A stretch of 64,000 nucleotides of DNA, from assembly GCA_963702895.1 (NCBI GenBank), contig OY969767.1:1376001-1440000 (forward strand), in the 5' to 3' direction. The position numbers and the translations under genes are program-made. Positions 32,973 through 55,104 of the stretch are shown here, piece after piece; the first letter of the stretch is position 1, and each line of letters opens with the position of its first letter. The DNA comes from an uncultured Elusimicrobia bacterium. GTDB taxonomy: Bacteria; Elusimicrobiota; Elusimicrobia; 2-01-FULL-59-12. The notes below the pieces were generated by a model. That model did no database searches. It saw only the letters and a program-made list of their open reading frames with translations, and was not told the origin of the DNA.

Positions 32973-33023
32973 TCCAACTCCTTGCCCGGACCCTTCGCAG
33001 AGATGCAGAAAATCCAGGTTTTT

Positions 33024-36000: not shown

Positions 36001-39000
36001 GATCGCCGTGAGCGCGGCCGCGCACATGGCGCTGGAGCACCTTCAATCTTCGATTCTTGGGTTTGGTCTGCTCAACGGACCGATCGACATGGCCGGGTTA
36101 GATTGGTTCGCCGAAGCGATGGTCTCTCAGGCGGGCGGGCCGGCGATCGCGCTGGGCTTTCTCGCTTGTGCTTTGTTTCAGAGGCTATGGGCGCCGGCTG
36201 ATCGCGGGTACGGCTCGGGCGACACCAGCCCTACCACTACACCAGCCGAGAATGCCACTTCGCCTGCCCCGACCTTCCGGTCGGCCGGGGAATTGTTCGG
36301 AAGCACTGTTCTCGACAGGCACCCGGGTGCCGCGTTGGGTGATCCGGCGCCGGAAGCAACCCCCTCGCCAGGATACACCCGGCCTTTGGACCAAGCCACG
36401 TTGGATCGGGTGGCCGCTCTTTTGGAACGCCGGGGACTTGGTTTTCTGCGACGCGTTGTGGGCATCACCAGGGTCCAAGTGACGGAAAAGCACGCTGCTC
36501 TTTATCTGATTAGGTCCACCATCCAACACCTTCTATTCACGAAGTCGATTTTCCAGGAAATTATCGTTCCGGATTTCGAGACCAACAAGATGCTCACGAG
36601 GATCCTCGCCCGCCTCCATGAACTGTTCGACCCTGTGACTCTGCTCAACAGCTTGTCGCAAACGGATGTCTATCAGGACTTGCCCGAACCGATCCGCCAG
36701 CGCTTGGCGGAGGCGCGCAAGCAGTTACCGCCTTCAAGAACGATGTCGGAGTCGAATCAAGACACGCTCCGGCTCATCGTCACAATCGGACTCTTGCACG
36801 AGCTCGGCAGGGTCATCTGGGATTGGATGCGACAGCTGGGGGATGATCCGCCAGGCATTGACGAGGAGGAACTGGCTGCCGACAAGCTGAACGAGTGGAG
36901 ACGACTGGCAGACGCGGCGGACCCGGACCTCTTGTGGGTCCGCGCCGCACTCAACGCGTACGGGCCGGGCCGACGCGAAGATGGCAGCAACACTTTTCCC
37001 GCCCAGCTCTTTGCCGAAAAGTTCGCCGTGTGGGCGTATCCGCCATTGTCCCGTTACTTTGGCGTGAAGCTTTCCGAAAAAGAGACCCAATTCTTTGACG
37101 AGCTTGCCATTTTCCTTCAAGCCACGACGGCGCAGCCCGGCCCCATTGTGCCGGCCGGCGTGTCAGACTTCTCGGTTGACATATTCATCGCCGGCGTGGT
37201 GCTGGATTCCCCCGAGGGGGAGAAGGTCGCAGCGGCGAGCAAGGCGTATCATGCGGCCAAGGAGGTCGTGACGCGATTACAGAATCAACACCGTTCCAAA
37301 GGTCACTCACCTATTCACGGGGACAGAGACCTCGAGGAAAGGACTCTTGTCGCCCGTACCCGGGACATGCAAACACGAGAGCGTGAACTGCGCGAGGCTT
37401 TGGCCGCTGCCGCCCATTCGGAGCAACCGCATTACTTCAATGGCGTGCTGAACGCGCTGGTGAGGTTGTTTGTCGCCGGCCAATTGCCCGCGGACGACCA
37501 CACGTTCGAAGACTTTCTGCGGCAGAACCGGGAGGTCAAAGAGAGCCAGGATGCGTGGATCCAGGATCACCGGGACAGCGAAGAGGGCGTCTTCAGCCTT
37601 AAGACATTACGGTTCGTTGCGTGGAAAGCCGTTCATGCAGCTCTATTGACGAAACTGCATCGGGATAATGGAGAGGCCATGTGGCACGCCCTGCAAAGAG
37701 TCGAGCAAAGGCTTAAGGCGTTACCGAAAAAGGAACGAAGCGAGCTCATCAAAGACAAAGCATTCATTGAAGGTGTGAAGAGCTATGCCCGCAAGGCTGG
37801 CGCCGATGTGCACGCAGAGTGGAACAGTACCTCTCAGGAAGGCATCGCCGGCGTGGTCATAGGACCCTCCCAGACCAACCGATCAGCTGTCGCGAGGAGC
37901 GACGCGGCCCCCGCCGCTGGCGATACGGCAGGCGATGAGAAGGTCAGCATCTCTCTGGATGGGGCCGCCACCCTAAGGACCCGCTCTAGCGCGCTCGCCA
38001 TTCAAGATCTGTTGCACCCTGCCATTCCCATCCGTGTGATGAACGACGAAGCGGGACGGCTGGTCTCCGGTCGAACACAACTCTGGACGGTCTGGGACAC
38101 TCCATTGGATAAGTTTGAGACCGATCTCGACTTTCATATTTTGACGTATCTCAAGACTCTTTTGGAACGTTATCCGGGCCGCCGGATCACGGTCGTGGAT
38201 TGGGGGTGCGGATCGGGGAAGGCGATCAGCGAACTTGCCCGCCTAGCCAAAGAGTTGAGCCCCAACCTCCGACTCATCGGTTATTCGGACCAGATTTACC
38301 GTGATTGGAATGAGGCTCCGGAGAATGTCACTTTCATTCTGGACACAGCAGACCAGCTGCCTGGTTATTTCAATGATGGAGACATTGACCTCGTCGTCAG
38401 TCATCACGGATTCTCCAAGCTCGGGGCGGACTATATTGGGCACCTGCGCCAGATGCACGGCCGAATGGCACCCCATGGAATCATTCGCCATCACAATGCG
38501 GGCTGGAGCATCAGAATCCATCAGGCACTTCCCGAGTACAGCATCCGATACTTTCCCTCGAAATGGCGGCGTCATGTGATTGAATTTGCCCCACTCCTGG
38601 TTCATTTAGACCCCGCACTCGCGTTGGACCAAGAGGCCCGGAGAGGAGAAAAGCACGCTTCTCCTACCCCAAAGGCAAATGAGACTCAGACTCAGCCCGC
38701 GCCCTTTCTTCTGCAGGCGATTGAACACCATCAGCCAGACGACACGTTTCCCCTTATCCATCTTCGCTCCAGCAAGACGAAGGAACCTTTCCAAATACGA
38801 CTTCGGCAATGGAATCCTTTGGATTTTAGTATTGAAGCTTCGGGCCGCCCCATCGGGGAGCTCAGGCTGAAACGGCTGTCCAATGCATTGGAGCTCAGCA
38901 GGATTCAACTGTATGAAAGATATGAACGCCGCGGTATTTCGGACGCCGTCATCCAGTGGCTTTCCGGTCAATTGGATGAGCGGCACCCCGCGCTCGAGCT

Positions 39001-40426
39001 CTCCACCCGCAAAGCGAATGTGCGGTCCAGTCTCGTGCGCCATTTCAGCGACGTGCAAATACGAACCCACGCGGGATACGTGCCCTTATCAGATCTTACA
39101 GGCCGGCTCCAGTTCGGCTTCAAGCGCCTTCGACGCTTCCGCGCCATGCAGCCAAAACAGCCAATTGACGAACCATCGGTTGCCACGCCGACATCCGACA
39201 TCAGCCTCAAGACCACCAGCATTTTTGTCGCAGGGATCCTGCAGGCCCCCCTGTGGGGGTATGGTCTGAGCCATATTCTTAGCGGGACTCCGGGTCTTTC
39301 CATGGGACACCTGCTCATTGGCGCAGGGTGGTCTTCGCTTCCCATCGCGACAGCTCTTTTTCTGACTGGCGGCTTTCTGGCGGCCGTGATTCCACTATCC
39401 CCTCCGAATCCTGCGGACAAGGTCCGCCTGTTGGGCTCTCAAGGGAAATGGCCGGGGGATGCGCTCCTTGAGGAGCTGGTCCGACTCGTGCAAAAAAAGC
39501 CGTCTATGAAGCAGCAAGATATTCAGTGGAGGGGTTACCGGATCACCGAGATCCTTTGGCAAATTCTCGATCAGCACCTGGGTTTTGACGGCCACACCAT
39601 TATCTACCCGGCCGGCGGGGCTGATGGATTGCCATCACGCTTTGCGGACACGATTGTGCTCAATCGCGACAGACTGGAGAATCAAGCACGCGAGACTTTC
39701 AGTCTGCCCAAGCCTGGGACACACCGTCTCACCTATCTCACGCTGGACGCGGCCAGTCCTGCCAATTACAACCAAGTCCGCTCCGACATCAAAACCCCGC
39801 AAACAACGTTACTGCTCAAGGGTCTCGAATGGATGCTCCCAACATCGAAGTTCTTTGTTCGGCGTTTGCGCGCGATTTGTAATGTCTTGCAACCGAATCG
39901 GGTGATCATCCTGCGCCGTGAGGATGCCGCTGCCGTGGTGCCTGTTCTTGCCGGCCTGGGCTATCGAGAGCGGACGGATTGGATTGATCGGACGCGCAAG
40001 AGAGTTCTTGAAGCGATCTTTAACTATATGTCCATATCGGTGCTGGATGAGGTTCAAACGCCATCCGGCCCCACGTTCATGATCCCCAATACAATCAGAC
40101 TGTTTGAAAGGAATAAGGGTCAACAGACCATGGCCGATCGAACGCCGCGGCATCGGGCCAATCGAAAGACAATCGCGCTTTTGGCCGCGGCGACACTCGA
40201 CGGCGGGCTCTTGGCCTGGGGCTGGGGCCACGTTCTTGACGGAGCGCAAATGCCGCTCGTCACCCAGGCCGCGTTCCTGGCGATGCCTACGTTCTCGTTG
40301 AGCACCGCCGCAGCGCTCTTCCTGGCCGGCGGCGCGCTTGTGTCGATCATAACGAAACAGACTCGTATATCGAGAGAATTTAACCGCCCATCTCGCACAC
40401 CCAGCCCGTTTCGCCAAGCCGCTTAA
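33024..40426 (+). CDS. Giant multidomain membrane protein 2 (~2470 aa); leader joined through a 1-nt frameshift near 33101-33120
   Basis: Leader MHRTIRRSAAVLLIVCLVVDP lies in a different frame from main ORF 33146-40426. Motifs: sigma-r4-like HTH, HATPase-like (LLKNA...GTGHGL), kinase-like (VAIK...ID), HELG zincin-like, SAM MTase (DWGCGSG), GNAT-like. Confidence 0.82.
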
Positions 40427-40526
40427 ATCACCCCCATCTTCGACTTCTCCGTAGCCGCACAGCCCGCACGAAACGCTTCAACAGGAAAAGATATAATCTT
40501 ACTGATGCGACTTTTTGGAGGTGTCT

Positions 40527-40742
40527 ATGTTTGATCGAATCACGTTTGACGCAAACATTATGGGCGGACGAGCCTGCATTCGCGGAATGCGGATTCCTGT
40601 TTCGGTGATCGTCGGGCAGGTGGCGCATGGAGCGACAGCCCGAGAAATCCTGAAAGGCTATCCTGACCTCAAAGAAGAAGACATCAAGCAGGCCATGGAA
40701 TATGCCGCCTGGCTGACTCAGGAAGAAGTGCACACGGCCTGA
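40527..40742 (+). CDS. DUF433 putative antitoxin
   Basis: MGGRACIRGMRIPV...YPDLKEEDI; GGAGGT RBS. Confidence 0.9.
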   Translation: MFDRITFDANIMGGRACIRGMRIPVSVIVGQVAHGATAREILKGYPDLKEEDIKQAMEYAAWLTQEEVHTA

Positions 40743-40751
40743 GGACGAACC

Positions 40752-41111
40752 ATGCGGTTTCTGGCTGATATGTGCGTCTCCCTGGAAGTCGTCGAGTGGC
40801 TCCGACAGCAACAGCATGACACCAAGCATCTCCGAGAGGAAAACCTTCACAGGCTGCCGAATGGAGACATCTTCAAGAAGGCGGCCGCAGAAAATAGGAT
40901 CCTCCTCACCTTTGATTTGGACTTCGGAGAAATCGTAGCGCTGGCGAAAGGAAACCAAACGGGCGTTATTTTGTTCAGGCTCTACGACACGCGGCCCGTG
41001 CATGTGATCGAACGCCTAAAGGTCCTCCTAGCTGATGCTCCTCCCGCCCTCAACAACAGCATCATTACTGTTGAAGAAACCCGCTACCGAATCCGCCATT
41101 TCCCCACTTGA
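40752..41111 (+). CDS. DUF5615 PIN-like putative toxin
   Basis: MRFLADMCV...RILLTFDLDFGE...GVILFRL. Confidence 0.9.
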   Translation: MRFLADMCVSLEVVEWLRQQQHDTKHLREENLHRLPNGDIFKKAAAENRILLTFDLDFGEIVALAKGNQTGVILFRLYDTRPVHVIERLKVLLADAPPALNNSIITVEETRYRIRHFPT

Positions 41112-41355
41112 CATCGCACCCCATAGCCCAAGCCAGTCGCATCGCCTGAACAGCGCTATTCCAGACTATTCCGCAGTCTATTGAAGAATAGTCATGACTA
41201 TTCTTCAGTGTTCCTCGCGGTCAATAAACGGCCCAACCAAAACCATGGGCCCTTTGGCCCGAAATTAATGGCCGTTCGCACCATTTATCCCCTTCTCAAA
41301 ACGCTTTAGAATCAAGTGATGGCTCGAACGCGCGCCCGCGCGGGTTCGAGCGCCT

Positions 41356-44300
41356 ATGCCCAAATCGCTGATCCGCATCGTCGCGCTGATACTCGTCCCG
41401 TGCATGCTCCTGGATCCGAGCTCCGCGTTCGCGGAGCTCGCCCGCCCCGCTGCGTGGCGGGCGCCATTCCCTGCAGGCGTTTCCCTTGCATCCCCACAGG
41501 CGACTCATGCCGCATTACGACTGGACTCTTTTCCGTTCGGTATCCAAGCCCTGGTTCCACCCAGCTGGCTGAGCCGTCCGATATCCTGGATCCAAAGAGC
41601 GAGTGAGCTGGCCCGCCAAGCAAGCAGGAATCGGTTCCAGGTGCGATGGACGTCTCTAGCAGGATCTCCATTCAGTTTCCCTGTTCTGGGTACGGACGAG
41701 CGACCCATTCGCCCGGTTCAATTCAGCGTATCCCAGAATGAGATCGGCGGCGGGCAGGACGGTACGGGCCAGATCGTAACGACACCAAGCGGCTCTCGCT
41801 TCCAGGTGTTCGACACCCCGCAAACCATGGCCGCCGCCCAGGCCGGTGAAATCGCGGAAATCATCCATGCCAATGATGCCGCCGGCCGGATCACCATCCT
41901 GATCCTGCCAACGGGCTCGACGCCAATCCCTGTCTACCACGAACTGGTCCGCCTGTACCAGGCGCGGCAGCTTTCCTTCCGAAACGTTCATACGTTTAAC
42001 ATGGATGAATACTACCCCGGACCGCAGGCTCCCTGCGCTTGGGCTCAGCACCCACAAAGCTACCGCCGATTTATGGATGAGCTCTTATTCTCAAAAGTGG
42101 ACATCCCTCGGGCAAATATTCATTTTCTTAACGGCCAGGCCGCCGACCCGGCAGCAGAGGCCGCTCGCTATGAACAGGAGTTTCGGGATCTCGCTCCAAA
42201 CGGCGCCGACCTGGAGTTGGGTGGTGTGGGAAGCCGGGGGCATGTGGCCTTCAACGAAGCGGTGGTTCACCTAACGGATGACTTTCTCCAGCGCCTCACG
42301 AGCAAGAATCGGGAAGCGCTAGGTCTGTCCAATGATTTCGCCTTAGAAGTAACGGCCGGCCACGAACTTGCTGCTTTGGCGATGATTCTACAAGGTCACT
42401 GGAATTTCCGGGAAGGCGAGACTTTCGTCCGCTGGCTTCGAGCAAGGATCAAGACGACGGGTCGCATCACGGAGGAAAGCCTCCAGAAATTGGCGGAAAG
42501 GCTTCGCCGCCAGCGCGTCACCATTGGCTGGAATCCCGATTCCCCTGATGCCAAGGACATCCAGGATTTCGTCAATCAAGCCAGTGCAAGATTCGGCTTT
42601 CCGATTGAACTGGCCGACCTCAGAAAACTTGATGATTCCCAGACACACCTACGGGAACTGGCTTTATCCACCGTGGTCGACAATTCCGTTCACTTCGCTG
42701 AGCCCGCCGACATTCCCACCCAGGCTCTCACGATGGGCCTGGGAACGCTGAGGCATTCGCAGCGGACCCGCATTCTCGCTTCGACACCCAACAAAATCCC
42801 GCCGCTGGAACAGGTTGCCGCCGGCCCTGTGTCTGAGCAAGTCCCTGTCACCGATGTCCTGCGCCATCCCGACACCCGGTTCCTGGTGACCCAGGCGGCC
42901 ATCCCGCCCACGGTGCGCACTGCCCTTGCAAGAACATCGGGTTTGGTATTGAACTCCCAACCCGAAACTCGAAACCCGAAAGCCGAATCCGGGACCCCTG
43001 CAGCGCGCGACACCAAGCTTTACACTCATCCCATCGCTGTTATGGCTCTCGCCTGGATGGCAAGTTCCCACTTTTATAGCTGGGACCCGGCCGGGACAGG
43101 CCTCCTTCTACTTCTGACAATCGCACCTTTAATGGCTTGGCAAGGAAGGATCTTCCGCGGCAAATCCGGCATGAATACGTTCCGGAGACTCGATGCATTG
43201 CTGAGGCATTTGAGGGGTCTTAGTTATGCTCGCTGTCGTGAACTCTTAGCAACCGGTCTCGACCGGTTCGTGCCGCCGCGCCGGAAACATAGACAGCGGG
43301 AGTTCCCGGCAATCGCCCTCCCCGCCGCCGCGCCAGGAAATCCGTTCCAATTGCGCCCCCCCACCGCCGTAGAGCTGGCGTTCCCCAGTCGGTATGAGAG
43401 CGCCGTTCACGCTAAGTTTGTGGGGAACGACCCCTACGATGATCGAACCAGAGCCATAGTCCAGGCCCACGCCACCGCGGCGTATGTGGACTTGATGAGA
43501 GAAATTTTCAAACGGACAGGCGGGACCTTGCGCGGAGTTTCGTTTCTTGAACTGGGCGCCGGGCTCGGTGCCATAGTGGACGTTCTGCGAACAAGAGCGG
43601 GTGTCGATGCTCAAGGCATCGAGGTCCGCCGGGAGTTTGTTCAATTCGCTAGGGATCATGGGGTGCCGCTTATTCAAGGGACACTGCTGGAAGTGCCCCT
43701 TGAACTGGCGGGAAAAACGTTCCAGATCACCTTTTCCAGGCAACTGCTGGATGCTATAGAGACGACTGATCGGGCCACCGAGGGCCCCATGCCCTCCCAA
43801 GTGACCCATGAAGAAGAACTCCGCGTCTTGGCCACGATCGCGGCGCTGACCGCCCCCGGAGGATGGAGCATCCATCAAACATATAGCTCCAACCCTATTC
43901 CCTTTACTGATGAAGAACTGACGCAGGCCGGGTTTCAGATTGTGTCGATGAACCCAAGGCGAACGATGATGGTGCTTCGCCGGTTGTCCGATCCGCCGCC
44001 TTCGAGCCCGGTACGGAGGCCTGAGGCCGCAGAAGAAACAATTAAACCTGAAGGAAAGAAGGGCCCCAGCCTTTACACTCATCCCATCGCTCTTATGGCT
44101 CTCGCCTGGATGGCAAGTTCCCACTTTTATGGCTGGGACCCGGCCGGGATTTTGCCGCTGCTCCTCTTGCTTGTGCCGCTGATGGCCTGGGGTCCGGGTC
44201 GTTATCGGCAATGGATGACCTCCCTTTCCGGGAGAGGGCCAAGATACAAGGCGAAGCAATGGGAACGGAAATTGGATGAAGATCTGAGGCGCCTGAGAGG

Positions 44301-47300
44301 AAAGGGAAGTAAAGCCGGAACCTTGCCATTTGAACTTTATCCCGGTGCCGATGCAGGGGCTCGGAAGCCTGCATCCCCTCGCCCGGCCCGGCCGGCCACC
44401 CAGCTGCCCGAAGCGGTCCCGGTCTCTGACCCCTCGGTGTCGCTCGACCTCGCCCCGGCTGCCGCGGTTTCCCTGGCACCGGCTGCCGCGACCGCCGTCT
44501 CGCCGCCTAGCCCTATCGCCGATTCGCCGCCTCCATCCACCGATGGCTCGCCGACCCGCCGGCCCGCCGACCCGCCGACTCGCCGCGTCGCCGCATTGGA
44601 CGTCGACCCCGCCGCGCCGGCGACAAGCCCGTTCCGGCCGTGGCGGTGGATCGCCGCCGGCATCGCAGTCGCCGCGGTCGTTGCCGCCCTGCATTTCGGC
44701 CCGACAACGTTCAGACAATTCCGGGACGGGTCTTCAACGCCGCGCCCGTCGTCGTCCGCGAGTCAGGACTACGTCTATGAGCCCGGGCCGGCGTCCGAAA
44801 CCACACACGACCGCGTCCGTACCATGATGGGACCGTACTACGGCATGGATCTTCAGGGACATCGGGCGGAATCCGGAGAACCCCGGGCCGATGCGGGAGC
44901 TCCCTCGCAGCCCCCCGCGCTGAACCCATTGGAGAACATTGCAGACATACAGCTGAGCGGTCATGCCGCGAATGAAATGCTGATGATGGCATTCGCGAAC
45001 ACGATGGAAGACGGCGGCGTTTTATCCCACGCGGGACGAATTGACTTCGTGCCCTCGGATAAACTCACGAAAGAACGCACCAAAGTCACGCTGATTTTGC
45101 CCGCATTGCGCCAGGGCCAGGCGATGCGCATGCCCATTCCCCTCAACCGCCGGGTCGATCCCCTGAGCATCTCGGACCCACGCCTCTGGGTTGACGCCCA
45201 GGGCTGGCTCACGGCCCGGGAGGATACCCCCCCGCTCACCGTGACCTTTGATTGGATCACGACCTTGGAAAACGGCTCCTTCCGGGCGAACTTCCCCGTG
45301 ACACCCTGGATGGAGCGGGAATTCCAAGATATTCCGCCGGAGGTTCGAAGGGACCTTGACCGCGCTCTAGGGCTCGATGAACATGGACGCGCGAGCGTCC
45401 TGGCCGGCGTGGTTGAGAAATACCTCGGCTACAACCAGCAACAGAGAGTTCAACTTCGTCGGGGGACGTGGAATCGTTTCATTGGAGAAGTTCTTGAGAC
45501 GGAAGGGCGGTTTAAGGGCGATTGCGACGTCTTGGCCACCGTCGGTTGGATCTGGGCCAGGTATCTTGGACTTGATGCTGTCATGGCAGCCGGCCGGAAC
45601 AACAGGGGCGGGGGCTCACGGTCCGGAACGAACATGTCCCACGCCGTCATGGTCATCCGGATCGGCGGCAAGTGGCTCGAATTCGACCCTTCCAAATGGG
45701 CGCCGCCCGTCGCCAGTGAAAGTCTTGCGCCTGACCAGCCCTCCGCCGACGGGAAACGGCTGGATGCCGGTCCCATGCCGACACCGCTCAAGCCCTCACC
45801 CCAGTTTGTCGCTACCTTTATCCCGAACCCCGAGCTTTTCCCGCCACCTCGAACGGGACCACCCGCCAGTGCAAAGCCTACCGCGGAGCGACCCGTTCCG
45901 CCCGGCGTGGGTCAGGAATCACCGAAGACCGAACCCGGCGCCAAAGTGGGGCCTGCCGAGAAGCCCGCGAGCGCCAAGAAACCCGCGAGCACCGAAACCC
46001 CCGCCAAGCGGCCCAGCACCTACCGCGTTCAGCCCGGCCAGAGTTTCAACGATATCGCGCGCTTGATATTCACGGATGAGAAATATCCCTACCCGGCGGC
46101 CTTGGATCTGATCGTGGACAACATCAACCACACGATCGGCGGCGACCCCGACCGCCTGATGGCAGGAGTCGACCTCATCGTACGGCCTACGAGCGCGTAT
46201 TCTAGTCCTGTAGCAGGGATGGATTGGGAATGGGGCCTCCATCGAAAATATGGACGGGCCTGGTATGAGCGGCGCCATGCCTTGCTGCAGCAGGCGCTGA
46301 CCCGGGAAAGTCAACGCCCGTCACCCTATACTTCGGAATACCAATCGGAACTGCGGGCGCGCGCGGGCGCCCGGTGGCGCTCGATCGAATTCGACATCCT
46401 TGCCATCAACGACATCCTGAATTGGATCGAACAACGCTTCGGGGTCAGATTCCAACGAGTTGACCTTATGCAGGCGATGGCTCAAACCATGGAGCGCAGT
46501 CAAATCATCTTGAAGCTGACGTCAACCGGCCGTTCAAAATCCGGAACGACCGCCGCCCCGAAGCAGACGGCCGACGGGGAATCGGCGAAACGGAGAAGCG
46601 GTGAACCGGCGGACTTGCCTCTGGGCCATTCCACGAAAACAAGTCCGGACGACCGACTCATCGCTCCGAAGAGCATCACTCCCCTCATGGCAGGCCTGCT
46701 CCAGGCTCCGCTGTGGTGGTGGGGGCTGAGCCACCTGCTGGGCGGGCCGCAGACACCGCTCCTGACCCAGGCCGCCTTCCTGGCCCTTCCGGCCATCCCG
46801 CTCGGCGCCGCCCTGGCCCTGTTCGCGGCGGGGGTCGTGGTGGCGGGGATGGCGGTTTTGGGGAGAAAGGTTCTGAAGCAAACCAGACCCGAGCGCATTG
46901 AAATACAACTGACCCCAATGGACAGACCCTATCAATTGGATCTCGTCAAGTCAGGTGGCAGCCATTCCCGGGGAGATTTGATTCGTCTCGATTTGGAGGA
47001 AATGCGGCTCGAAGCGCACAAGACCGGCGTACCCGGCCGTATGGCTGTTCGTCGAGTCTACCTCGAAGAGCTTGGACACGCTGTTGACGCGCGCCGCTTC
47101 GTCAGAGAAGGGCGGCCTCTTAGCGGCTTTGTAAGACCCAACTCACCTTTACAGACGTATTGGGACCACCACAATCCCAAAGACCCTGAGCATGACATGA
47201 AGGAGCTAGTGGCGGGTCTCAGGCACATCCTGTTTGCGCAAACCCCCTTTGAGGCGGAAAGAGCCCTCATAAAATTATCGCAGGTAGCCAATGATCCGAC

Positions 47301-50300
47301 CGACAGCCACTATTGGGGCGGACGCTTCGCCCTTGAGAGGATTCTCCAACGCATCGACGCAGGGCGAGGCGAGAGGGTGGATGATCTGACAAACTATTTG
47401 CCACGCCTCATCTATGGGTCAGGGGCGTTCCCGGACCTGCCTACGCTGCGTTTACTGGCGAAAGAATTATGTATCGAAAACCTGCGGGACTATCCGCCTG
47501 ACGGAGACGGTCTCCCTGCGCTGAGCGCGGATGGGTCCCGGATCGACGTTCCGGATGAGACCCAACAAGCTTTGGCAACGGTGTGGCGCGCATTCGAGAC
47601 TTACACGGGAAAATCATTGGCCGATGACGCGGTCCCCACGCCGGAACATGTCCGACATTCACAAGCGGCGAGGAGCGGGCTGCCTGGGTTTGACCGAACG
47701 GGCCATTCTATTCATGACCCTGGTCTTGCGCAAGGGAGAAAGATGGTTGGTATGGTCATCGCCGGCCTGCTCCAGGCTCCGCTGTGGTGGTGGGGGCTGA
47801 GCCACCTGCTGGGCGGGCCGCAGACACCGCTCCTGACCCAGGCCGCGTTCCTGACGATGCCGGCCATCCCGCTCGGCGACGCCCTGATCAGCTTCGCCGT
47901 GGGCGCGGCGTGGATCGTGGTGGCGGGGATGGCGGTTTTCGGGTCAGGGGCGCCCGCTCCGGGGCAGGAAGGGGTTTCCGGTCCTGTCTCGCCGGGACCG
48001 TCTTCCAATACCGCGGCCGCCGTCCGGAGGTCCTTCGAAGCGCAGGCTCGAGTACTGGCCGGTATCCCCACCGTGACCGAATTTGAAGCTAATTTCCCAG
48101 GCACGATACGTCGCGTCGATCTTGGACCAGGCTATTCGAATTCGTTACGAGCCGGAGAAGTTCCTAAGATCGATTTCACGCGTCGAATACAGGGAAGAGT
48201 CTACCAGCCACCACCGGCGTCGGAAAACGATTGGCCGAAATGGCTGGACCTGTACGTCGAAAAAGACGCCCAGGCGCTTGTCGTGAGGCTGATGAGAGCG
48301 GGCTTTCGCCCCGATTATTCCAACGCTTACGGAGATGGCCTGAAAGGAGTGTGGTGGACCCGAACCAGCCACCATACTGACACCGTCGGTTCCAACGCAA
48401 CAAATACGTTCTTTACTCCATTGACAGAGGAGGATTATCTCGCGCCGGACCAAGGCGAACATCCGGGCGAGACTCCTAACGACCCAGGAGCGCCTGTTAC
48501 ACCAACAGAACCTCCCTTGAATTGGATCGAAAAGAATGACGCAGCCCTCGAGCAACTGAGTCCCATCGACCGTCAGCTTGTCGATGCCATTCTCCAAGGC
48601 GCCTTACACGGCGATGCTGAACTGCTTGCCCAGTACCCAGAAAAAGTTTATATCGATCCTATTGAAGTTGGACGCTCGGATGAAGGCCGAACAATCTTTC
48701 TCAAGCTTGAAACGAGCATCCTAGTAGAAGGCCGCTACCTCACACACCTGCGATTCAAAGGCGCTCGCCCCCATAAAGGGCGCTACGGGCAGGGGAACCA
48801 AGTCGCCTATCTCGGACGTCGGGGCCATGTCGAGCGGCCTGTAACGGTCGATCAGGAAGGGCGATTGACGGTTTTTGCCGGTCAACTTGACCCCATGGGA
48901 GGTATGCGCCGTATCGGGGCTGCCAACGAATACGCTTTGATGCAAAGCGAAAACAGCCAAGGCGCCTATCGCACGGACGTGCCGATCGGCTGGGGCATCT
49001 TCCCTGGATTTGCATTTGAAAACGAACCTCTGGGCTGGGCGATCGCAGGGATGGAAGGGCCCGACGTTCGAATAAACGGGCGTCGTCAGAATCAGCTGAT
49101 CCTCCGGTCGCGCACGAACGACCCTTATGGGATGATTGAACTGTCTCAGGAACAGTCGCAACACCTCGCCAGGCTCATCGGTGAGAGCATCTGCGCTTAT
49201 CATCAAAAAGGCCGTTATCACCGCTACCCCCATTTTGGAAATATCGGCGTGGCCTACGATACTGTCACCCGTTCCATCCGTTCTGTTGTTCTGCGGGATT
49301 TGGAGACCTCCGTCCGGAAAGACAGCCTGAGCGGATCTCCGAAAGAAATTGAGAACCAAATCATTGCTTGGCGTTTCCGGGATGTGATTCGGTTGATCTA
49401 TCAGTTCTCCTTCAGACCACGGCCCAATGACCCGCTCATCGGCGCCCTCTTGCGCGGATACTTCCCGGAAGGGACTCTAAGAAATGATGATCTTCAGGCC
49501 CTGCTTGTGACCATTTGCCGTCCCAACTTTCTCGATGATTACGCATCCTTATTCTACGACGATGAGACGCAAGATCTCTCGAATTTGATCGACACTCTCG
49601 ACATCCAATCTCATCCTAATTATCAGCATCTTTGGAACGCGATCAGACAATCCATGGCGAGCCAGCCCGCCACTCCTGAAGGGAATGACGGTTCGGCGAC
49701 TCAAGAACATCCGGGTCGCATTGATCCGACGGGCTTGCGCCGCGTGCTCCCGGCAATCGCCCTCCTGGCCGCTCTTCCCTGGACCTACGGCTTCACTTCG
49801 ATCAGCGGCTCTCCCGGATCCGGCGCCGCGATCCCGCTCGGCGCCGCCCTGGCCCTGTTCGCGGCGGGGATCGCGGTCCTGATCTCAGGGAATTCCCCTC
49901 GAAAACGCAAAATACTAACTAAGGCGGCGAGCCATAAGGCAGGAAGGCAAAAGCCGGTGAGTGGCGATGCACCGGGTCCTTCGCGTCACGTTTACCCTGA
50001 CCCCGTCGTCATGGAGAAAAGTCGTTACGATCTTCCAAAGAGTTTGAAGTCCTGGTCTTGGCTCGCTCGCAACAAGGACCAACGTCAATGGCTGCGGGAC
50101 GTATTCCTGCCGAGACTCTTGGCGACTCAAAACCTCCGCGCTCCAGGACAAATCAAGGTCGTAGACCTTGGCGTAAGCACCGGAGAAGTCCTCGCCCGAA
50201 CTTACTATGAGATTTTCCAGCATCTCATAGAAAACACCTTGAAGGGAACATGGAAGGCCAGGATGGTAGGTGTTGATAGGGATGCGACCGTGCTGGCGGA

Positions 50301-51876
50301 AGCCCGTCTTCGGATAAGCGGCAAGCACCCTTTCAATGATATCTCGATCTCTGGCCCTACCATTGAAAAACCAACCCCCTACTCGGCGGCCGTGGTGGAT
50401 TTCTTAAACAGCGACCCGGCGGCCTTTCAATCCAGCGTGCAGCTGGAGCAGCTCGACATCACCGACCATGATTCGCTGGACCCCGTTTTAGACGGTGTCG
50501 ACCTGATCATGGTCAACCACGTCATGGAATATTTGCACCCGGCGGACGTAAAGCCCTTCTTGCAACACCTGTACCAGAAGGCCCCGCAAGCCTGGTTGGC
50601 CATGGAAAATGAATACAGTACTCCCGCCGAAGCTCACCACCGCCAATGGATACCTTATCAGCCGACGCATTTGCCGGGCTTTCGCCCAACGGATTCAGGA
50701 AGCAGCTCACTTCCCGGCGAGAACACACCCCGGTCAGCGGCTGTGGTCGGCATCTTCGCCAGCTGGCTCGCGCTCAGTCAGGCCGCATCCTCCGCTCACC
50801 TCCCCAGTAGGTTGGAATCCCTGCTTTCATTCTTCTATTCGATATCGCCGCTCTTTCCCTGGCTCATGCTCGCCGCGACAGCGGTCTGGCTGGCGGGCAC
50901 CTTTGTCGCGCTGAGAACTCTTTGGAGGCACCCCTCTCGGGTGCCGAGCATAAGACAGGGCGGTACGGCTTCGCCCAGCCCGGCCAGAGCGCTCACTTTT
51001 CGGTACTATTCCGAACTGACCCCCGGACAAAAAGCTGATGTAACGCTAGCTTCATTAATCAGAAGGTTAGGAGCAAGACGTGAGGTGCACGTCTACGATA
51101 CGAAACCATTGGGCAGCCGGTGGGGCCAATTGCCGATCCTCACCCGGTGGAGCCTGCGCCGTTTCACGCGTAACCTGACCCCTGATCCGACAACACTCAG
51201 ACTCGATGCTCTCGTCGCCTATCGTGGAGACATTCCCATGGGTGTTTACGCGTTCATCGATCTCGGTCCAGATCGTCAAATTGTTATGGACAACGGCATC
51301 TACATGGACGCCGACCAGAGGCAGAACGGATACGGTGGAAAACTCACGAAGGAACTCCTCAGCAGGCTGGCAGAGCGCGGGTACAGAATGTTCGTTTTGG
51401 GACCGCCTTTGGGAACGGCTGAAGCGGAGGGGCTCCGTCGGTGGCTGAGCGCTGCCCCAGGCGTTGAAACGCGGGGCAGAACAACCATCGTCCATCTCGC
51501 TAACTACCGAACAAACACCGCCAATTCCCAAGCCGCCGGCAAACCCAAAGGCAAAACAAACGATTCCGCCCCGGAAGCGGAGCCCGCTGACGCGCCGCGC
51601 GGCATAAAGCTTCGCAGTTCCGCGCTGGCCGGCGCTCTCGCCAGCGCGATCGCGCTCAGCCAGGCGCCGTTTGCCCCCCAACTGCCGGATTGGCTTTCTC
51701 CCCTCTTCAGCACGGCGAGTTCGCTGGCGCCGCTCGTTCCCTGGGTGGGGATGGCCGCCGTGATCGGTTGGCTTTTACGGCCAGCTCTGACTCGCATGCT
51801 GTTGAAGGCCCTTCCCCGCCTGCGCGGCAGTCGTTCATCCCGAGCCATCCATCATCACCTTCGAGCCGCGGCCTGA
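41356..51876 (+). CDS. Giant multidomain membrane protein 3 (3506 aa)
   Basis: Uninterrupted ORF. NagB-like domain (PTGSTP, TFNMDEY, GHVAFNE, ALTMG), SAM MTase (LELGAGLG), transglutaminase (GDCD...HA...W..FDP), LysM (YRVQPGQSF..IA), zincin-like (EELGH), kinase-like (HRYPHFGN...D), CheR-like (DLGVSTGE), GNAT. Confidence 0.88.
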   Translation: MPKSLIRIVALILVPCMLLDPSSAFAELARPAAWRAPFPAGVSLASPQATHAALRLDSFPFGIQALVPPSWLSRPISWIQRASELARQASRNRFQVRWTSLAGSPFSFPVLGTDERPIRPVQFSVSQNEIGGGQDGTGQIVTTPSGSRFQVFDTPQTMAAAQAGEIAEIIHANDAAGRITILILPTGSTPIPVYHELVRLYQARQLSFRNVHTFNMDEYYPGPQAPCAWAQHPQSYRRFMDELLFSKVDIPRANIHFLNGQAADPAAEAARYEQEFRDLAPNGADLELGGVGSRGHVAFNEAVVHLTDDFLQRLTSKNREALGLSNDFALEVTAGHELAALAMILQGHWNFREGETFVRWLRARIKTTGRITEESLQKLAERLRRQRVTIGWNPDSPDAKDIQDFVNQASARFGFPIELADLRKLDDSQTHLRELALSTVVDNSVHFAEPADIPTQALTMGLGTLRHSQRTRILASTPNKIPPLEQVAAGPVSEQVPVTDVLRHPDTRFLVTQAAIPPTVRTALARTSGLVLNSQPETRNPKAESGTPAARDTKLYTHPIAVMALAWMASSHFYSWDPAGTGLLLLLTIAPLMAWQGRIFRGKSGMNTFRRLDALLRHLRGLSYARCRELLATGLDRFVPPRRKHRQREFPAIALPAAAPGNPFQLRPPTAVELAFPSRYESAVHAKFVGNDPYDDRTRAIVQAHATAAYVDLMREIFKRTGGTLRGVSFLELGAGLGAIVDVLRTRAGVDAQGIEVRREFVQFARDHGVPLIQGTLLEVPLELAGKTFQITFSRQLLDAIETTDRATEGPMPSQVTHEEELRVLATIAALTAPGGWSIHQTYSSNPIPFTDEELTQAGFQIVSMNPRRTMMVLRRLSDPPPSSPVRRPEAAEETIKPEGKKGPSLYTHPIALMALAWMASSHFYGWDPAGILPLLLLLVPLMAWGPGRYRQWMTSLSGRGPRYKAKQWERKLDEDLRRLRGKGSKAGTLPFELYPGADAGARKPASPRPARPATQLPEAVPVSDPSVSLDLAPAAAVSLAPAAATAVSPPSPIADSPPPSTDGSPTRRPADPPTRRVAALDVDPAAPATSPFRPWRWIAAGIAVAAVVAALHFGPTTFRQFRDGSSTPRPSSSASQDYVYEPGPASETTHDRVRTMMGPYYGMDLQGHRAESGEPRADAGAPSQPPALNPLENIADIQLSGHAANEMLMMAFANTMEDGGVLSHAGRIDFVPSDKLTKERTKVTLILPALRQGQAMRMPIPLNRRVDPLSISDPRLWVDAQGWLTAREDTPPLTVTFDWITTLENGSFRANFPVTPWMEREFQDIPPEVRRDLDRALGLDEHGRASVLAGVVEKYLGYNQQQRVQLRRGTWNRFIGEVLETEGRFKGDCDVLATVGWIWARYLGLDAVMAAGRNNRGGGSRSGTNMSHAVMVIRIGGKWLEFDPSKWAPPVASESLAPDQPSADGKRLDAGPMPTPLKPSPQFVATFIPNPELFPPPRTGPPASAKPTAERPVPPGVGQESPKTEPGAKVGPAEKPASAKKPASTETPAKRPSTYRVQPGQSFNDIARLIFTDEKYPYPAALDLIVDNINHTIGGDPDRLMAGVDLIVRPTSAYSSPVAGMDWEWGLHRKYGRAWYERRHALLQQALTRESQRPSPYTSEYQSELRARAGARWRSIEFDILAINDILNWIEQRFGVRFQRVDLMQAMAQTMERSQIILKLTSTGRSKSGTTAAPKQTADGESAKRRSGEPADLPLGHSTKTSPDDRLIAPKSITPLMAGLLQAPLWWWGLSHLLGGPQTPLLTQAAFLALPAIPLGAALALFAAGVVVAGMAVLGRKVLKQTRPERIEIQLTPMDRPYQLDLVKSGGSHSRGDLIRLDLEEMRLEAHKTGVPGRMAVRRVYLEELGHAVDARRFVREGRPLSGFVRPNSPLQTYWDHHNPKDPEHDMKELVAGLRHILFAQTPFEAERALIKLSQVANDPTDSHYWGGRFALERILQRIDAGRGERVDDLTNYLPRLIYGSGAFPDLPTLRLLAKELCIENLRDYPPDGDGLPALSADGSRIDVPDETQQALATVWRAFETYTGKSLADDAVPTPEHVRHSQAARSGLPGFDRTGHSIHDPGLAQGRKMVGMVIAGLLQAPLWWWGLSHLLGGPQTPLLTQAAFLTMPAIPLGDALISFAVGAAWIVVAGMAVFGSGAPAPGQEGVSGPVSPGPSSNTAAAVRRSFEAQARVLAGIPTVTEFEANFPGTIRRVDLGPGYSNSLRAGEVPKIDFTRRIQGRVYQPPPASENDWPKWLDLYVEKDAQALVVRLMRAGFRPDYSNAYGDGLKGVWWTRTSHHTDTVGSNATNTFFTPLTEEDYLAPDQGEHPGETPNDPGAPVTPTEPPLNWIEKNDAALEQLSPIDRQLVDAILQGALHGDAELLAQYPEKVYIDPIEVGRSDEGRTIFLKLETSILVEGRYLTHLRFKGARPHKGRYGQGNQVAYLGRRGHVERPVTVDQEGRLTVFAGQLDPMGGMRRIGAANEYALMQSENSQGAYRTDVPIGWGIFPGFAFENEPLGWAIAGMEGPDVRINGRRQNQLILRSRTNDPYGMIELSQEQSQHLARLIGESICAYHQKGRYHRYPHFGNIGVAYDTVTRSIRSVVLRDLETSVRKDSLSGSPKEIENQIIAWRFRDVIRLIYQFSFRPRPNDPLIGALLRGYFPEGTLRNDDLQALLVTICRPNFLDDYASLFYDDETQDLSNLIDTLDIQSHPNYQHLWNAIRQSMASQPATPEGNDGSATQEHPGRIDPTGLRRVLPAIALLAALPWTYGFTSISGSPGSGAAIPLGAALALFAAGIAVLISGNSPRKRKILTKAASHKAGRQKPVSGDAPGPSRHVYPDPVVMEKSRYDLPKSLKSWSWLARNKDQRQWLRDVFLPRLLATQNLRAPGQIKVVDLGVSTGEVLARTYYEIFQHLIENTLKGTWKARMVGVDRDATVLAEARLRISGKHPFNDISISGPTIEKPTPYSAAVVDFLNSDPAAFQSSVQLEQLDITDHDSLDPVLDGVDLIMVNHVMEYLHPADVKPFLQHLYQKAPQAWLAMENEYSTPAEAHHRQWIPYQPTHLPGFRPTDSGSSSLPGENTPRSAAVVGIFASWLALSQAASSAHLPSRLESLLSFFYSISPLFPWLMLAATAVWLAGTFVALRTLWRHPSRVPSIRQGGTASPSPARALTFRYYSELTPGQKADVTLASLIRRLGARREVHVYDTKPLGSRWGQLPILTRWSLRRFTRNLTPDPTTLRLDALVAYRGDIPMGVYAFIDLGPDRQIVMDNGIYMDADQRQNGYGGKLTKELLSRLAERGYRMFVLGPPLGTAEAEGLRRWLSAAPGVETRGRTTIVHLANYRTNTANSQAAGKPKGKTNDSAPEAEPADAPRGIKLRSSALAGALASAIALSQAPFAPQLPDWLSPLFSTASSLAPLVPWVGMAAVIGWLLRPALTRMLLKALPRLRGSRSSRAIHHHLRAAA

Positions 51877-51886
51877 CCCGAGAGAT

Positions 51887-52100
51887 TAGCCGGGAAACTG
51901 CAGTTGCCGTCACCCCGGCGGATTGTTAGCCGGCCCTCCACACATCCGGCGGGCCGTCCGCCCTGCCGTGTGGCGGACGGGGTCTATCACCGTCGTAAAC
52001 GGAATGATGGATCCCCCCCTTACGACCGGGGGGGATGACGGTACAAAAAAGTCCCGACGTCTCAGTCAATAAAGAACGTTCAACAGAACTTTTCCGGTTA
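51887..52100. repeat. MITE-like element with REP-like doublet, homologous to 4370-4731
   Basis: TAGCCGGGAAACTGCAGTTG...GACGTCTCAGT...GAACTTTTCCGGTTA matches the ends of the 4370 element. Confidence 0.75.
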
Positions 52101-52111
52101 GGTAAGCTCCT

Positions 52112-52275
52112 CGAAGATTAGGCAGGCCCCCCCCAGAAAGATTAGGTAGGTTGTCCGAAAGATTAAGCAGGATGACGGAAAGAATGATACGGCTCCTCGA
52201 AGAATGAGACGCTTGCTCCGGAAAGAATGAGACGGTTGGCAGAAAGAATGAGACGGTTCCTGGGAAAAGACGAAC
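52112..52275. repeat. Array of 7-8 degenerate motifs (AAGATTAGGCAGG / AAGAATGAGACGG), 20-24 bp spacing
   Basis: AAG cores at about 52114, 52138, 52159, 52180, 52200, 52223 and 52244. Confidence 0.8.
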
Positions 52276-52374
52276 CGGGAAAAGTTCTATTGAGCTTGTT
52301 GTATCGGCTCCGGGGTCTGAAACAAAGTTCTAAAAAGTGTTCCGCTGGGCCTGGCCCCAAGTTCAGACTTAGCG

Positions 52375-52839
52375 CTATGACGCGTCCGGGGTGATACCTT
52401 TGACGATGTCGCGGACTTCAGTCTTTCGGCGCTCCATTTCATCACCAAGCTTGTTGAGTCCCTCTGAATCCAGGACCCGCTCCGAAAGCGGGAATAGCCC
52501 CTCTTCTTCCTTCGAAAAATGCGTCTCAAGAAGCACTCTCACCTGGAGGGCATAAGACCGCCATTCCTTGCTTTTGGCCGCATGCCCCAAGCGGAGCTGG
52601 GTCAGGAGCTCGTTGATATCTTTGTGTTCCTGAGCGATTTCGTCGGAGAGACGCCGCAAGGACGACTCCTTCTGCAGCGCCGGCAGGAAAATAGCGTCTT
52701 CAAACCAGGCATGGCCGACTACGGTGCGGTGCAGCGTGCTGGCGATCTCCCCAAATCGCGGGTTTTCGGGATGAAAAGCTTCCATCACCTTGCGAATGAG
52801 CCGGTGGTCGGTGAGGAGTTTGTCGGTTGCTTTGGTCAT
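52375..52839 (-). CDS. Hemerythrin (HHE) domain protein
   Basis: L..DH, H...E...FLP, EH, HFSKEEEGLFP. Confidence 0.85.
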   Translation of the reverse strand: MTKATDKLLTDHRLIRKVMEAFHPENPRFGEIASTLHRTVVGHAWFEDAIFLPALQKESSLRRLSDEIAQEHKDINELLTQLRLGHAAKSKEWRSYALQVRVLLETHFSKEEEGLFPLSERVLDSEGLNKLGDEMERRKTEVRDIVKGITPDAS

Positions 52840-53192: not shown

Positions 53193-53262
53193 AGGATATG
53201 CCTTGAATAATGAAGATTCCTTTCGTTCCTGATTGATGCAATTGATGACTGCGGTGTTTAGT

Positions 53263-53340
53263 GCCGTCACCCCGGCGAACGCCGGGGTCTATCGAATATC
53301 GAAGGAAAATAATGGATCCCGGCTTTCGCCGGGATGACGT
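53263..53340. repeat. REP-like palindromic doublet downstream of rpoD
   Basis: GTCACCCCGGCGAACGCCGGGGTC...GGATCCCGGCTTTCGCCGGGATGAC. Confidence 0.8.
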
Positions 53341-53361
53341 CAGCTGCAGTGCTCCGGCTGA

Positions 53362-55104
<1,743 letters not shown>

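What the first reader, a model, noticed from the sequence alone, without database searches (positions are those of the whole stretch)
43018..49869. Linker cassettes are near-identical at DNA level while the cargo between them is unrelated
Seen: 46693-46775 equals 47764-47846 (83 bp identical); 43018-43096 vs 44071-44149 (79 bp, 2 mismatches); 46795-46833 equals 49831-49869 (39 bp); TGATCGGCGCCTCCCTGCTCGCGG is shared at about 29602 and 31111 in ORF1. The first two pairs bracket a single cargo domain about 1.05 kb apart. Identity at synonymous sites implies recent duplication or conversion. Inference: linkers act as recombination handles that let cargo modules be gained, lost or swapped in frame, as in polymorphic toxin cassettes.
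Basis: partly seen in the sequence, partly recalled or inferred. Interest (0 to 1): 0.78.

Follow-up and report, generated by a model that had tools for sequence, protein, structure and literature searches.

The report
Gene-conversion patches in giant-protein linkers
Inside a giant patchwork membrane-protein gene of an uncultured Elusimicrobiota bacterium, the short hydrophobic spacers between unrelated enzyme domains carry patches of almost identical DNA, best explained by recent copying of one spacer onto another, while their use for swapping domains remains unproven.

Summary
All four repeat pairs lie at the stated coordinates: 83/83, 77/79, 39/39 nt, and the 24-mer twice. With the protein held fixed, 30 synonymous-codon shuffles give longest repeats of only 13-21 nt.

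The repeats lie in hydrophobic, membrane-anchor-like linkers that separate mutually unrelated cargo domains in three tandem giant ORFs of 2343, 2426 and 3506 aa. Inside the patches synonymous differences are nearly absent. The rest of the same linkers, and older paralogous linkers, are saturated with them. Linker Lc is a three-part mosaic of Ld, Le and Ld. I read this as short-tract (about 50-140 bp) intragenic gene conversion.

The "handles for cargo swapping" idea is only partly supported. Recombination at the linkers is evident, and cargo homologues in relatives sit in other giants. However, no orthologue, strain variant, orphan cassette or read-level deletion could be found, and the linker family is unique among 1.84 billion proteins.

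The giants lie in a 28.9-kb island beside an IS256-type transposase. A second giant-gene locus in the same genome shows the same pattern. The scan noted this same stretch once more in an overlapping window (e1-1113433). It had no note on other DNA.

The parts
41356..51876 (+). ORF3, 3506 aa. Signal-like leader, then 7-8 unrelated cargo blocks: NagB-like, SAM-methyltransferase, transglutaminase-like (weak), two of unknown family, CheR-like methyltransferase and GNAT-like (weak). Seven hydrophobic linkers La-Lg separate them, and the protein ends ...AA.
33146..40426 (+). ORF2, 2426 aa from this GTG. Four linkers; its last two (2_Lc, 2_Ld) belong to the same family B as ORF3 Lc/Ld but differ in DNA. 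Its leader lies upstream in another frame (from 33024), joined at a C8 run.
25941..32972 (+). ORF1, 2343 aa. Leader, ICMT-like membrane block, receiver domain and three linkers (1_La and 1_Lb of family D, 1_Lc of family E).
43013..43096 (+). Patch in linker La (first, weakly hydrophobic helix). 84 nt, 95% identical to the Lb patch.
44066..44149 (+). Patch in linker Lb, partner of the La patch. Together they bracket cargo C2 (methyltransferase, 43162-44070).
46685..46855 (+). Linker Lc. Its 5' part is identical to Ld (83/83), its middle 46792-46841 matches Le (94%), and its 3' end matches Ld again. It is a three-part mosaic.
47756..47926 (+). Linker Ld, partner of Lc. Together they bracket cargo C4 (46882-47751, no family found). 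Ld carries a 9-nt insertion and a divergent middle.
49828..49877 (+). Second helix of linker Le, 50 nt at 94% to Lc 46792-46841 (39/39 core).
29586..29629 (+). ORF1 linker 1_La. 44 nt at 86% to 31095-31138 (1_Lb), with a 24-nt exact core. An older or weaker case of the same thing.
31095..31138 (+). ORF1 linker 1_Lb, partner of 1_La.
40217..40309 (+). C-terminal linker of ORF2 (2_Ld). Same peptide family as Lc/Ld but only 70-72% DNA identity. It serves as the internal baseline for an unconverted paralogue.
24459..53361 (.). 28.9-kb island between the class-III aminotransferase gene and rpoD. It holds the IS256/Mutator-type transposase (24608-25855), ORF1-3, a DUF433/DUF5615 gene pair (40527-41111) and a hemerythrin gene.

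Best explanation
The near-identical stretches are short tracts of non-reciprocal homologous recombination (gene conversion, about 50-140 bp). They connect paralogous hydrophobic linker modules within one lineage-specific giant mosaic membrane-protein gene. The linkers are the only homologous DNA in a gene whose cargo domains are otherwise unrelated. Repair or recombination templated on a neighbouring linker therefore copies a patch from one linker to another and erases synonymous differences there. The rest of the linker and the cargo keep their own sequence. Shown: the dS contrast, the mosaic structure, and the restriction to linkers. Inferred: the RecA-dependent mechanism, the direction of transfer and the timing. 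An in-frame crossover between the same patches could delete or duplicate a cargo block, but that is a possible consequence and has not been observed.
For: (1) La/Lb patch: 24 of 24 identical residues use identical codons (10.9 expected from the giants' own codon usage). Directly after the patch, the next 9 identical residues share only 2 codons, for Met and Trp. An old, diverged paralogy thus carries a young identical island. (2) Lc/Ld patch: 38 of 42 identical residues share codons (expected 14.9). Lc/Le: 13 of 15 (expected 4.5). (3) Unconverted members of the same family give the baseline: Lc vs 2_Ld 13 of 33 identical codons, Lc vs 2_Lc 11 of 30, 2_Lc vs 2_Ld 6 of 22. (4) Mosaic in the alignment, counted. 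In columns 13-115 Lc agrees with Ld alone at 69 sites and with Le alone at 2. In columns 116-172 the counts are 2 and 14. In columns 173-192 they are 13 and 0. (5) Identity ends abruptly where linker meets cargo. (6) RecA is present in the genome at 465.7 bits. (7) The same pattern occurs in a second giant-gene locus of the same genome with a different linker family: three copies of about 126 nt at 92-95% identity, and 36 of 41 codons identical between two copies, with unrelated flanks. (8) Third-position GC of the B-family patches is 0.92-1.0 against 0.68-0.70 expected from their amino acids (z 2.9-4.2). The second locus gives 0.85-0.90 against 0.74 (z 1.7-2.4). This fits GC-biased conversion.
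Against: No donor/recipient polarity or date can be given. The La/Lb patch shows no GC3 excess (0.615 vs 0.70 expected, z -1.0), so the GC-bias argument is not general, and copies of one family are not independent. Both differences within the La/Lb patch are non-synonymous, which is unexpected for a neutral young tract, though n=2. No repeats of this kind were found in 8 loci (about 112 kb) of giants from related genomes, so the process is not shown to be general. Those loci come from fragmented assemblies. The assembly carries two apparent frameshifts, one in rpoD and one at a C8 run in ORF2's leader. I could verify only one linker edge with independent data: one 151-nt contig of run X1 crosses 47756, and that run may be the source sample.
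Confidence: 0.7

Rival explanations
1. Recombination handles. The conserved linker DNA is used, now or recently, for reciprocal in-frame recombination that inserts, deletes or exchanges whole cargo modules, so the giants are assembled by cassette shuffling. This can coexist with gene conversion. The confidence given is for cargo turnover through these repeats being real.
For: Repeat pairs are direct, in frame, and bracket exactly one cargo block (1053 and 1071 nt). The exact stretches of 79-83 nt seem long enough for RecA-type recombination (my recollection of minimal homology lengths, not tested here). Linker families are shared between ORFs (B in ORF2 and ORF3, D in ORF1 and ORF2, E in ORF1 and ORF2) while the cargo is not. 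C-terminal tail modules and internal linkers belong to the same families, which suggests fusion or truncation at linkers. Single cargo homologues occur in other giants with other neighbours in related genomes (9 of 9 hits of relatives' long ORFs are to one cargo block each, none to a linker). The whole locus is an island next to a transposase.
Against: No presence/absence variant was found. No orthologue appeared in 31 relatives or 11 family genomes. The 5.8-billion-protein index returned only the protein itself at similar length and nothing among shorter proteins. Linker family B occurs in 2 of 1,835,955,588 representative proteins, both from this window. Two metagenome scans found nothing. 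The genome holds no extra copies of the patches and no cargo paralogues except ordinary ICMT-like genes. Cargo GC3 ranges only from 0.575 to 0.705. In relatives some cargo homologues are not bounded by a hydrophobic linker: in G003 L021 the C7-like block follows other soluble sequence directly.
Confidence: 0.25
2. Recent duplication. A linker, or a linker plus cargo, was duplicated recently, and the second cargo copy was then replaced or diverged beyond recognition.
For: The most similar linkers are neighbours (La/Lb, Lc/Ld, Lf/Lg, 1_La/1_Lb), as tandem duplication would give.
Against: Identity covers only part of each linker. The second helix of La/Lb is saturated with synonymous changes (7 of 9 identical residues use different codons) next to a patch with none. 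Lc is a mosaic of two different partners. Cargo blocks show no trace of homology, which is incompatible with a duplication young enough to leave 83 identical bases.
Confidence: 0.08
3. Selection on the nucleotide sequence itself: an RNA structure, an internal regulatory site, or a template/variable repeat pair of a diversity-generating retroelement.
For: None positive. Only the fact that the DNA is more conserved than the protein requires.
Against: RNA folding z-scores of the five patches run from -0.85 to +1.77, so they are no more stable than shuffles. There is no Rfam match at E<=1 in 40000-53500. Family members 2_Lc and 2_Ld encode the same motif with different codons. All three reverse-transcriptase genes of the genome lie outside the window (which spans genome positions 1,376,001-1,440,000), the nearest at genome position 1.96 Mb. 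The mismatches are not adenine-specific: G/C and A/G in La/Lb.
Confidence: 0.03
4. Assembly or polishing artefact that homogenised paralogous linkers.
For: The assembly contains two likely indel errors, a frameshift in rpoD and a C8 run that separates ORF2 from its leader.
Against: All three giant frames stay open for 2343-3506 codons. The patches have unique flanks within read length. One 151-nt contig of run X1 matches 47642-47792 exactly across the cargo/Ld edge. The mosaic and the 9-nt indel are not what mis-polishing produces. A second locus shows the same pattern.
Confidence: 0.05

Closest known systems
Gene conversion between modules of assembly-line polyketide synthase genes, including GRINS (Nivina et al. 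2021, PMC8256042; abstract and sections 5 and 13 read)
   Same: Near-identical DNA segments lie inside very long modular ORFs. They are more similar than protein conservation explains, are attributed to intragenic gene conversion, and are proposed to speed diversification.
   Different: PKS modules are homologous to each other, and the converted regions are mostly 0.3-1.4 kb. GRINS are defined as >500 bp with mean absolute GC and TA skews >0.15. Here the tracts are 50-171 bp, sit only in hydrophobic linkers between non-homologous domains, and have GC skew of 0.00-0.18.
Polymorphic toxin systems (Zhang et al. 2012, PMC3482391; only the abstract start in the search listing seen)
   Same: A conserved stretch is followed by a variable domain, with recombination as the diversifying process.
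   Different: In those systems a single C-terminal toxin domain is exchanged with standalone cassettes. Here the variable blocks are internal and multiple. They look like ordinary enzymes (methyltransferases, GNAT, NagB-like, receiver). No toxin family, no cassette copies and no cargo paralogues were found.
In-frame recombination among direct DNA repeats in Helicobacter pylori cagY (PMC2194252; only the abstract start in the search listing seen)
   Same: Direct repeats lie within one large gene, and recombination between them would keep the reading frame.
   Different: cagY carries dense arrays of repeats, and rearranged alleles were observed. Here there are a few dispersed pairs about 1-3 kb apart around unique domains, and no rearranged allele was seen.
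Giant multi-transmembrane patchwork proteins of Omnitrophota and other PVC-group phyla (bioRxiv 10.1101/2023.11.21.568195 and 10.64898/2026.06.07.730766; passages found by term search only)
   Same: Very long membrane-associated proteins string together divergent enzyme domains, including methyltransferase and GNAT modules. The first preprint notes very large genes in Elusimicrobiota.
   Different: In both texts the terms 'recombination', 'gene conversion' and 'shuffl' occur 0 times, and 'linker' occurs 0 times in the second. DNA-level homogenisation of linkers is therefore not described there. Pfam found no SecA-like domain in the three giants here.

Membership tests
Concerted evolution by intragenic gene conversion | Synonymous divergence is locally near zero inside a paralogous segment whose neighbouring homologous sequence is diverged | tested here: met
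   La/Lb: 24/24 identical codons in the patch, then 2/9 just after it. Lc/Ld: 38/42. Baseline paralogues: 6/22 to 13/33.
Concerted evolution by intragenic gene conversion | Mosaic ancestry with breakpoints inside the repeat | tested here: met
   Sites where Lc agrees with Ld alone vs Le alone: 69/2, then 2/14, then 13/0 along the alignment.
Concerted evolution by intragenic gene conversion | Paralogues within a genome are more alike than orthologues between genomes | not testable with these tools
   No orthologue exists in any collection searched.
Polymorphic toxin system | Variable C-terminal toxin domain after a conserved pre-toxin region | tested here: not met
   Pfam and NCBIfam find no toxin or delivery family. 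The variable blocks are internal enzyme-like domains.
Polymorphic toxin system | Standalone or orphan cassettes carrying a piece of the conserved handle | tested here: not met
   The linker profile hits only ORF2 and ORF3 in the genome. The genome self-comparison shows the patches only inside ORF3. There are no cargo paralogues apart from ICMT-like genes.
Polymorphic toxin system | Cognate immunity gene directly downstream | tested here: inconclusive
   After ORF3 comes a 498-nt spacer, then a hemerythrin gene on the other strand. Between ORF2 and ORF3 lies a DUF433/DUF5615 pair, which is not a known immunity family.
GRINS | Duplicated region >500 bp with >80% identity inside the same gene cluster | tested here: not met
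   The longest repeat is 171 nt at 85%. Definition taken from PMC8256042 sections 5 and 13.
GRINS | Mean absolute GC and TA skews both >0.15 | tested here: not met
   GC skew is 0.03 and 0.016 (Lc, Ld), 0.0 (Le), and -0.15 and -0.18 (La, Lb). TA skew is 0.19-0.60.
Diversity-generating retroelement (template/variable repeat) | Reverse transcriptase next to the repeats, and mismatches confined to adenines of one copy | tested here: not met
   Reverse-transcriptase genes lie only at genome positions 230 kb, 464 kb and 1.96 Mb, all outside the window at 1.376-1.440 Mb. The mismatches are G/C and A/G.
Giant patchwork membrane proteins of PVC-group bacteria | Very long ORF with repeated hydrophobic segments and many unrelated enzyme domains | tested here: met
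   2343-3506 aa, 3-7 hydrophobic linkers each, and Pfam domains of at least 6 unrelated families. No formal family definition exists, so this is resemblance only.

The most novel reading that the evidence does not exclude
The hydrophobic linkers work as a bacterial counterpart of exon-shuffling junctions. Each unit (cargo plus membrane anchor plus basic tail) would be a former tail-anchored protein. The conserved anchor DNA would let whole units be fused, excised and exchanged in frame between the tandem giants. Gene conversion would keep the handles recombination-competent, and this would be the way these lineage-specific giant mosaic proteins are built. A second locus with its own handle family in the same genome would make it a general property of this organism's giants.
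Probability: 0.15. Interest if true: 0.8.

Novelty: new variant of a known kind. Interest (0 to 1): 0.45.

Why it matters
How bacterial giant mosaic proteins are assembled is not known. Here the only DNA that demonstrably recombines inside such a gene is the membrane-anchor linker between unrelated domains. That gives a concrete and testable route for module turnover, namely in-frame crossover at linkers. It also gives a clean natural example of short-tract gene conversion between non-tandem intragenic repeats, possibly GC-biased. If sister genomes show cargo differences bounded by these patches, the finding would explain how such proteins grow. If they do not, it remains a tidy case of concerted evolution in an orphan gene.

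Tried and rejected
- ORF3 residues 501-3500 against 31 genomes gave non-self matches in 8 genomes, each to a single domain, at 22-35% identity.
- ORF2 against the 11 genomes of the family gave a best non-self match of 39% over 193 aa.
- The 5.8-billion-protein index returned only the protein itself at similar length and nothing among shorter proteins for residues 1650-2350.
- The family-B linker profile against 1.84 billion representatives hit only ORF3 and ORF2.
- Two metagenome-contig scans, with the family-B alignment and with La, confirmed no relative.

Reads: only one run (X1) was listed, with an 0.08 share of words and no RNA holder listed. Laying it gave 13 mostly read-length contigs, 8 of them at least 99% alike. 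There were no joints and no cover over most linkers, so no population test was possible.

Structure: a single-sequence AlphaFold2 model of Lc-C4-Ld (437 aa) had mean pLDDT 45 and pTM 0.26. That is too poor to use, so no fold search was run. The hairpin topology of the linkers therefore rests on hydropathy and on basic residues after the second helix (sequences). It is inferred, not shown.

My first guess that the genome is Omnitrophota was wrong. The seven closest DnaG relatives (50-74% identity) are all titled Elusimicrobiota or Elusimicrobia, and the other 73 of 80 loci are at most 41% identical.

Other checks that found no support:
- RNA-element and Rfam checks found none.
- The retroelement check found none near the locus.
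- Relatives' giants (8 loci, about 112 kb) showed no comparable direct repeats.
- One search failed on a size limit, on a machine error and on a frame with stop codons. Each was corrected and repeated.

Full report
OBSERVATION. 46693-46775 equals 47764-47846 (83/83). 43018-43096 and 44071-44149 differ at 2 of 79 positions. 46795-46833 equals 49831-49869 (39/39). The 24-mer stands at 29602 and 31111. The repeat finder extends the pairs to 171 nt at 85%, 84 nt at 95%, 50 nt at 94% and 44 nt at 86%. Spacings of 1053, 1071 and 3036 nt are multiples of three. Identity falls to background within a few bases at the outer edges. The shared peptides do not explain this. When ORF3's protein is kept and synonymous codons are reshuffled 30 times, the longest exact repeat is 13-21 nt, against 83 observed.

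ANATOMY. The window holds three tandem giant ORFs on the + strand: 25941-32972 (2343 aa), 33146-40426 (2426 aa) and 41356-51876 (3506 aa). Each is a chain of soluble blocks ('cargo') separated by short hydrophobic modules ('linkers') and ends with such a module plus a basic tail. Cargo with a family assignment: a NagB-like domain, three or four SAM-methyltransferase domains, a receiver domain and an ICMT-like membrane block. Weaker matches are a transglutaminase-like core and a GNAT domain. Seven of the 15 cargo blocks scanned match nothing.

Cargo blocks are not related to each other. In an all-against-all BLASTP of 32 segments (E<=0.1), every hit below E=0.01 involves only linkers; only two cargo-cargo hits appear, at E=0.033 and 0.034. 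The best of 105 cargo-cargo Smith-Waterman scores is 62, with z at most 5.0.

The linkers fall into five families:
- A: La and Lb of ORF3.
- B: Lc and Ld of ORF3, the last two linkers of ORF2, and the second helix of Le.
- C: Lf and Lg of ORF3.
- D: 2_La, 1_La and 1_Lb.
- E: 2_Lb and 1_Lc.

Only the second helix of each linker passes a strict hydropathy threshold. A hairpin topology is inferred from the basic residues that follow it. The one structure model was too poor to help (pLDDT 45).

WHAT THE IDENTITY MEANS. Within the La/Lb patch all 24 identical residues use the same codon (10.9 expected). Immediately after the patch the same two linkers remain homologous as proteins, but only 2 of 9 identical residues share a codon, and those two are Met and Trp. 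In Lc/Ld 38 of 42 identical residues share codons (14.9 expected). In Lc/Le the count is 13 of 15 (4.5 expected). Members of family B that lie in ORF2 give the unconverted baseline of 6/22 to 13/33.

Lc is a mosaic (alignment, counts). In its first hundred columns it agrees with Ld alone at 69 sites and with Le alone at 2. In the next 57 columns the counts are 2 and 14. In the last 20 they are 13 and 0. Ld carries a 9-nt insertion there.

A young identical island inside an old diverged paralogue, together with patchwork ancestry, is the signature of short-tract gene conversion. It does not fit a recent duplication of a whole unit. RecA is encoded in the genome. Third-position GC in the family-B patches is 0.92-1.0 against about 0.69 expected from their amino acids (z 2.9-4.2). 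This fits GC-biased conversion, but the La/Lb patch shows none (z -1.0).

RIVALS CHECKED.
- An RNA or regulatory element: folding z-scores run from -0.85 to +1.77, there are no Rfam matches, and ORF2's copies encode the motif with other codons.
- A retroelement template/variable pair: all three reverse-transcriptase genes lie outside the window, the nearest at genome position 1.96 Mb, and the mismatches are not adenine-specific.
- An assembly artefact: the assembly does contain two apparent frameshifts, in rpoD and at a C8 run between ORF2 and its leader. Against an artefact, the giant frames are open, the patches have unique flanks, and one 151-nt contig of run X1 crosses the C4/Ld edge exactly. 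The mosaic with an indel is also not what mis-polishing yields.

CONTEXT. The seven closest DnaG relatives (50-74% identity) are records titled Elusimicrobiota or Elusimicrobia. In 3 of the 4 such loci that reach beyond rpoD (L026, L027, L029), rpoD is followed directly by the class-III aminotransferase gene. In the window the homologous gene lies 28.9 kb away. The intervening island (24459-53361) carries an IS256/Mutator-type transposase, the three giants, a DUF433/DUF5615 pair and a hemerythrin gene.

The giants have no orthologue anywhere I could search. Linker family B exists in only two of 1.84 billion representative proteins, both from this window. Two metagenome scans found no relative.

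Same-genus genomes do encode smaller proteins of the same make, with a similar leader, hydrophobic modules and an ...AA end. Their linkers do not align with those here. Nine BLASTP hits link nine long ORFs from nine loci of the relatives to the segments here. All nine are to single cargo blocks at 22-42% identity, and none is to a linker.

THE HANDLE HYPOTHESIS. What is shown is that homologous recombination acts on the linkers, and that scaffold elements (leader, linkers, tails) are shared while cargo is not, both among the three paralogues and across relatives. That makes module exchange at linkers a reasonable model.

What is missing is any observed exchange:
- no variant, no read joint and no spare copy of a handle;
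- no cargo paralogue that could be a cassette;
- only mild compositional differences among cargo.

In one relative a cargo homologue is not bounded by a linker at all.

A SECOND CASE. A genome-wide self-comparison, followed by translation of 22 selected short repeat pairs, found one other locus of this kind. It has a different linker peptide, present at the C-terminus of a 12,935-aa giant and twice in the adjacent 3018-aa giant (genome positions 788483, 792252 and 796153). The copies are about 126 nt at 92-95% identity with razor-sharp edges and unrelated sequence between them. 36 of 41 codons are identical between two copies. The process is thus not a one-off in this organism. I found nothing comparable in 8 loci (about 112 kb) of relatives' giants.

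COMPARISON AND VERDICT. The nearest described phenomenon is gene conversion between modules of polyketide synthase genes, including GRINS (PMC8256042). The tracts here fail the GRINS definition on length, and mostly on GC skew. They also join non-homologous domains. Two preprints on giant proteins of PVC-group bacteria describe the architecture, but by term search they describe no recombination at linkers.

The finding is a real and clean case of intragenic concerted evolution in an unusual setting. I class it as a new variant of a known kind, of moderate interest. A bolder reading, linker-mediated module shuffling, can be tested with long reads or sister genomes.

Noticed in passing
G000 genome coordinates 788483-788609, 792252-792378, 796153-796278 (outside the window): Second locus with the same pattern. 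A different linker peptide is repeated three times across a 12,935-aa and a 3018-aa giant, about 126 nt at 92-95% identity with sharp edges and unrelated cargo between the copies.
   Followed up: partly
window 53362-55112 (- strand): The housekeeping sigma factor gene rpoD is split into two ORFs by a frameshift between the ORF ends at 53841 and 53964. Relatives have one ORF of 573-590 aa. This is probably an indel error of the assembly.
   Followed up: partly
window 33024-33146: ORF2's signal-like leader lies in a different frame from the body of ORF2. The frames meet at a run of eight C at about 33112-33119. This is either an assembly indel or a slippery homopolymer.
   Followed up: partly
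window 40527-40742 and 40752-41111 (+ strand): A small gene pair between ORF2 and ORF3: DUF433 (83.7 bits) followed by DUF5615/PIN-like (80 bits). It has the look of a toxin-antitoxin pair inside the island.
   Followed up: partly
window 24459-53361: The three giants sit in a 28.9-kb insertion between rpoD and a class-III aminotransferase gene. These two genes are adjacent in 3 of 4 related Elusimicrobiota loci. An IS256/Mutator-type transposase gene (24608-25855) lies at one end.
   Followed up: yes
window 32961-32972, 40415-40426, 51865-51876; also L018 and L021: Most proteins of this make end in two alanines after a basic or polar residue. This holds for ORF1-3, for two ORFs of G001 and one of G003, and for the 12,935-aa giant of the second locus; its 3018-aa neighbour ends SSA. 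It could be a conserved C-terminal signal or degradation tag.
   Followed up: no
linkers of ORF1-3, e.g. window 46700-46790, 40250-40290, 32850-32880: A short motif (aliphatic or Thr, then Ser/Thr/Leu, then Gln-Ala, then Gly/Ala/Pro) precedes the hydrophobic helix in most linkers of all five families. This hints at a shared recognition or processing site.
   Followed up: no
window 51877-52374: The spacer after ORF3 contains several imperfect copies of a 15-20-nt unit rich in GAAAGA/TTAGG-like words.
   Followed up: no
window 46687-46833, 47758-47904, 49828-49878: Third-codon-position GC of the family-B patches is 0.92-1.0 against 0.68-0.70 expected from their amino acids. The La/Lb patches show no such excess.
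   Followed up: yes
G000 whole genome: A 2.72-Mb genome with stop-to-stop frames of 13,707, 12,935, 8601 and 6682 codons, and many intragenic tandem repeats in them.
   Followed up: no
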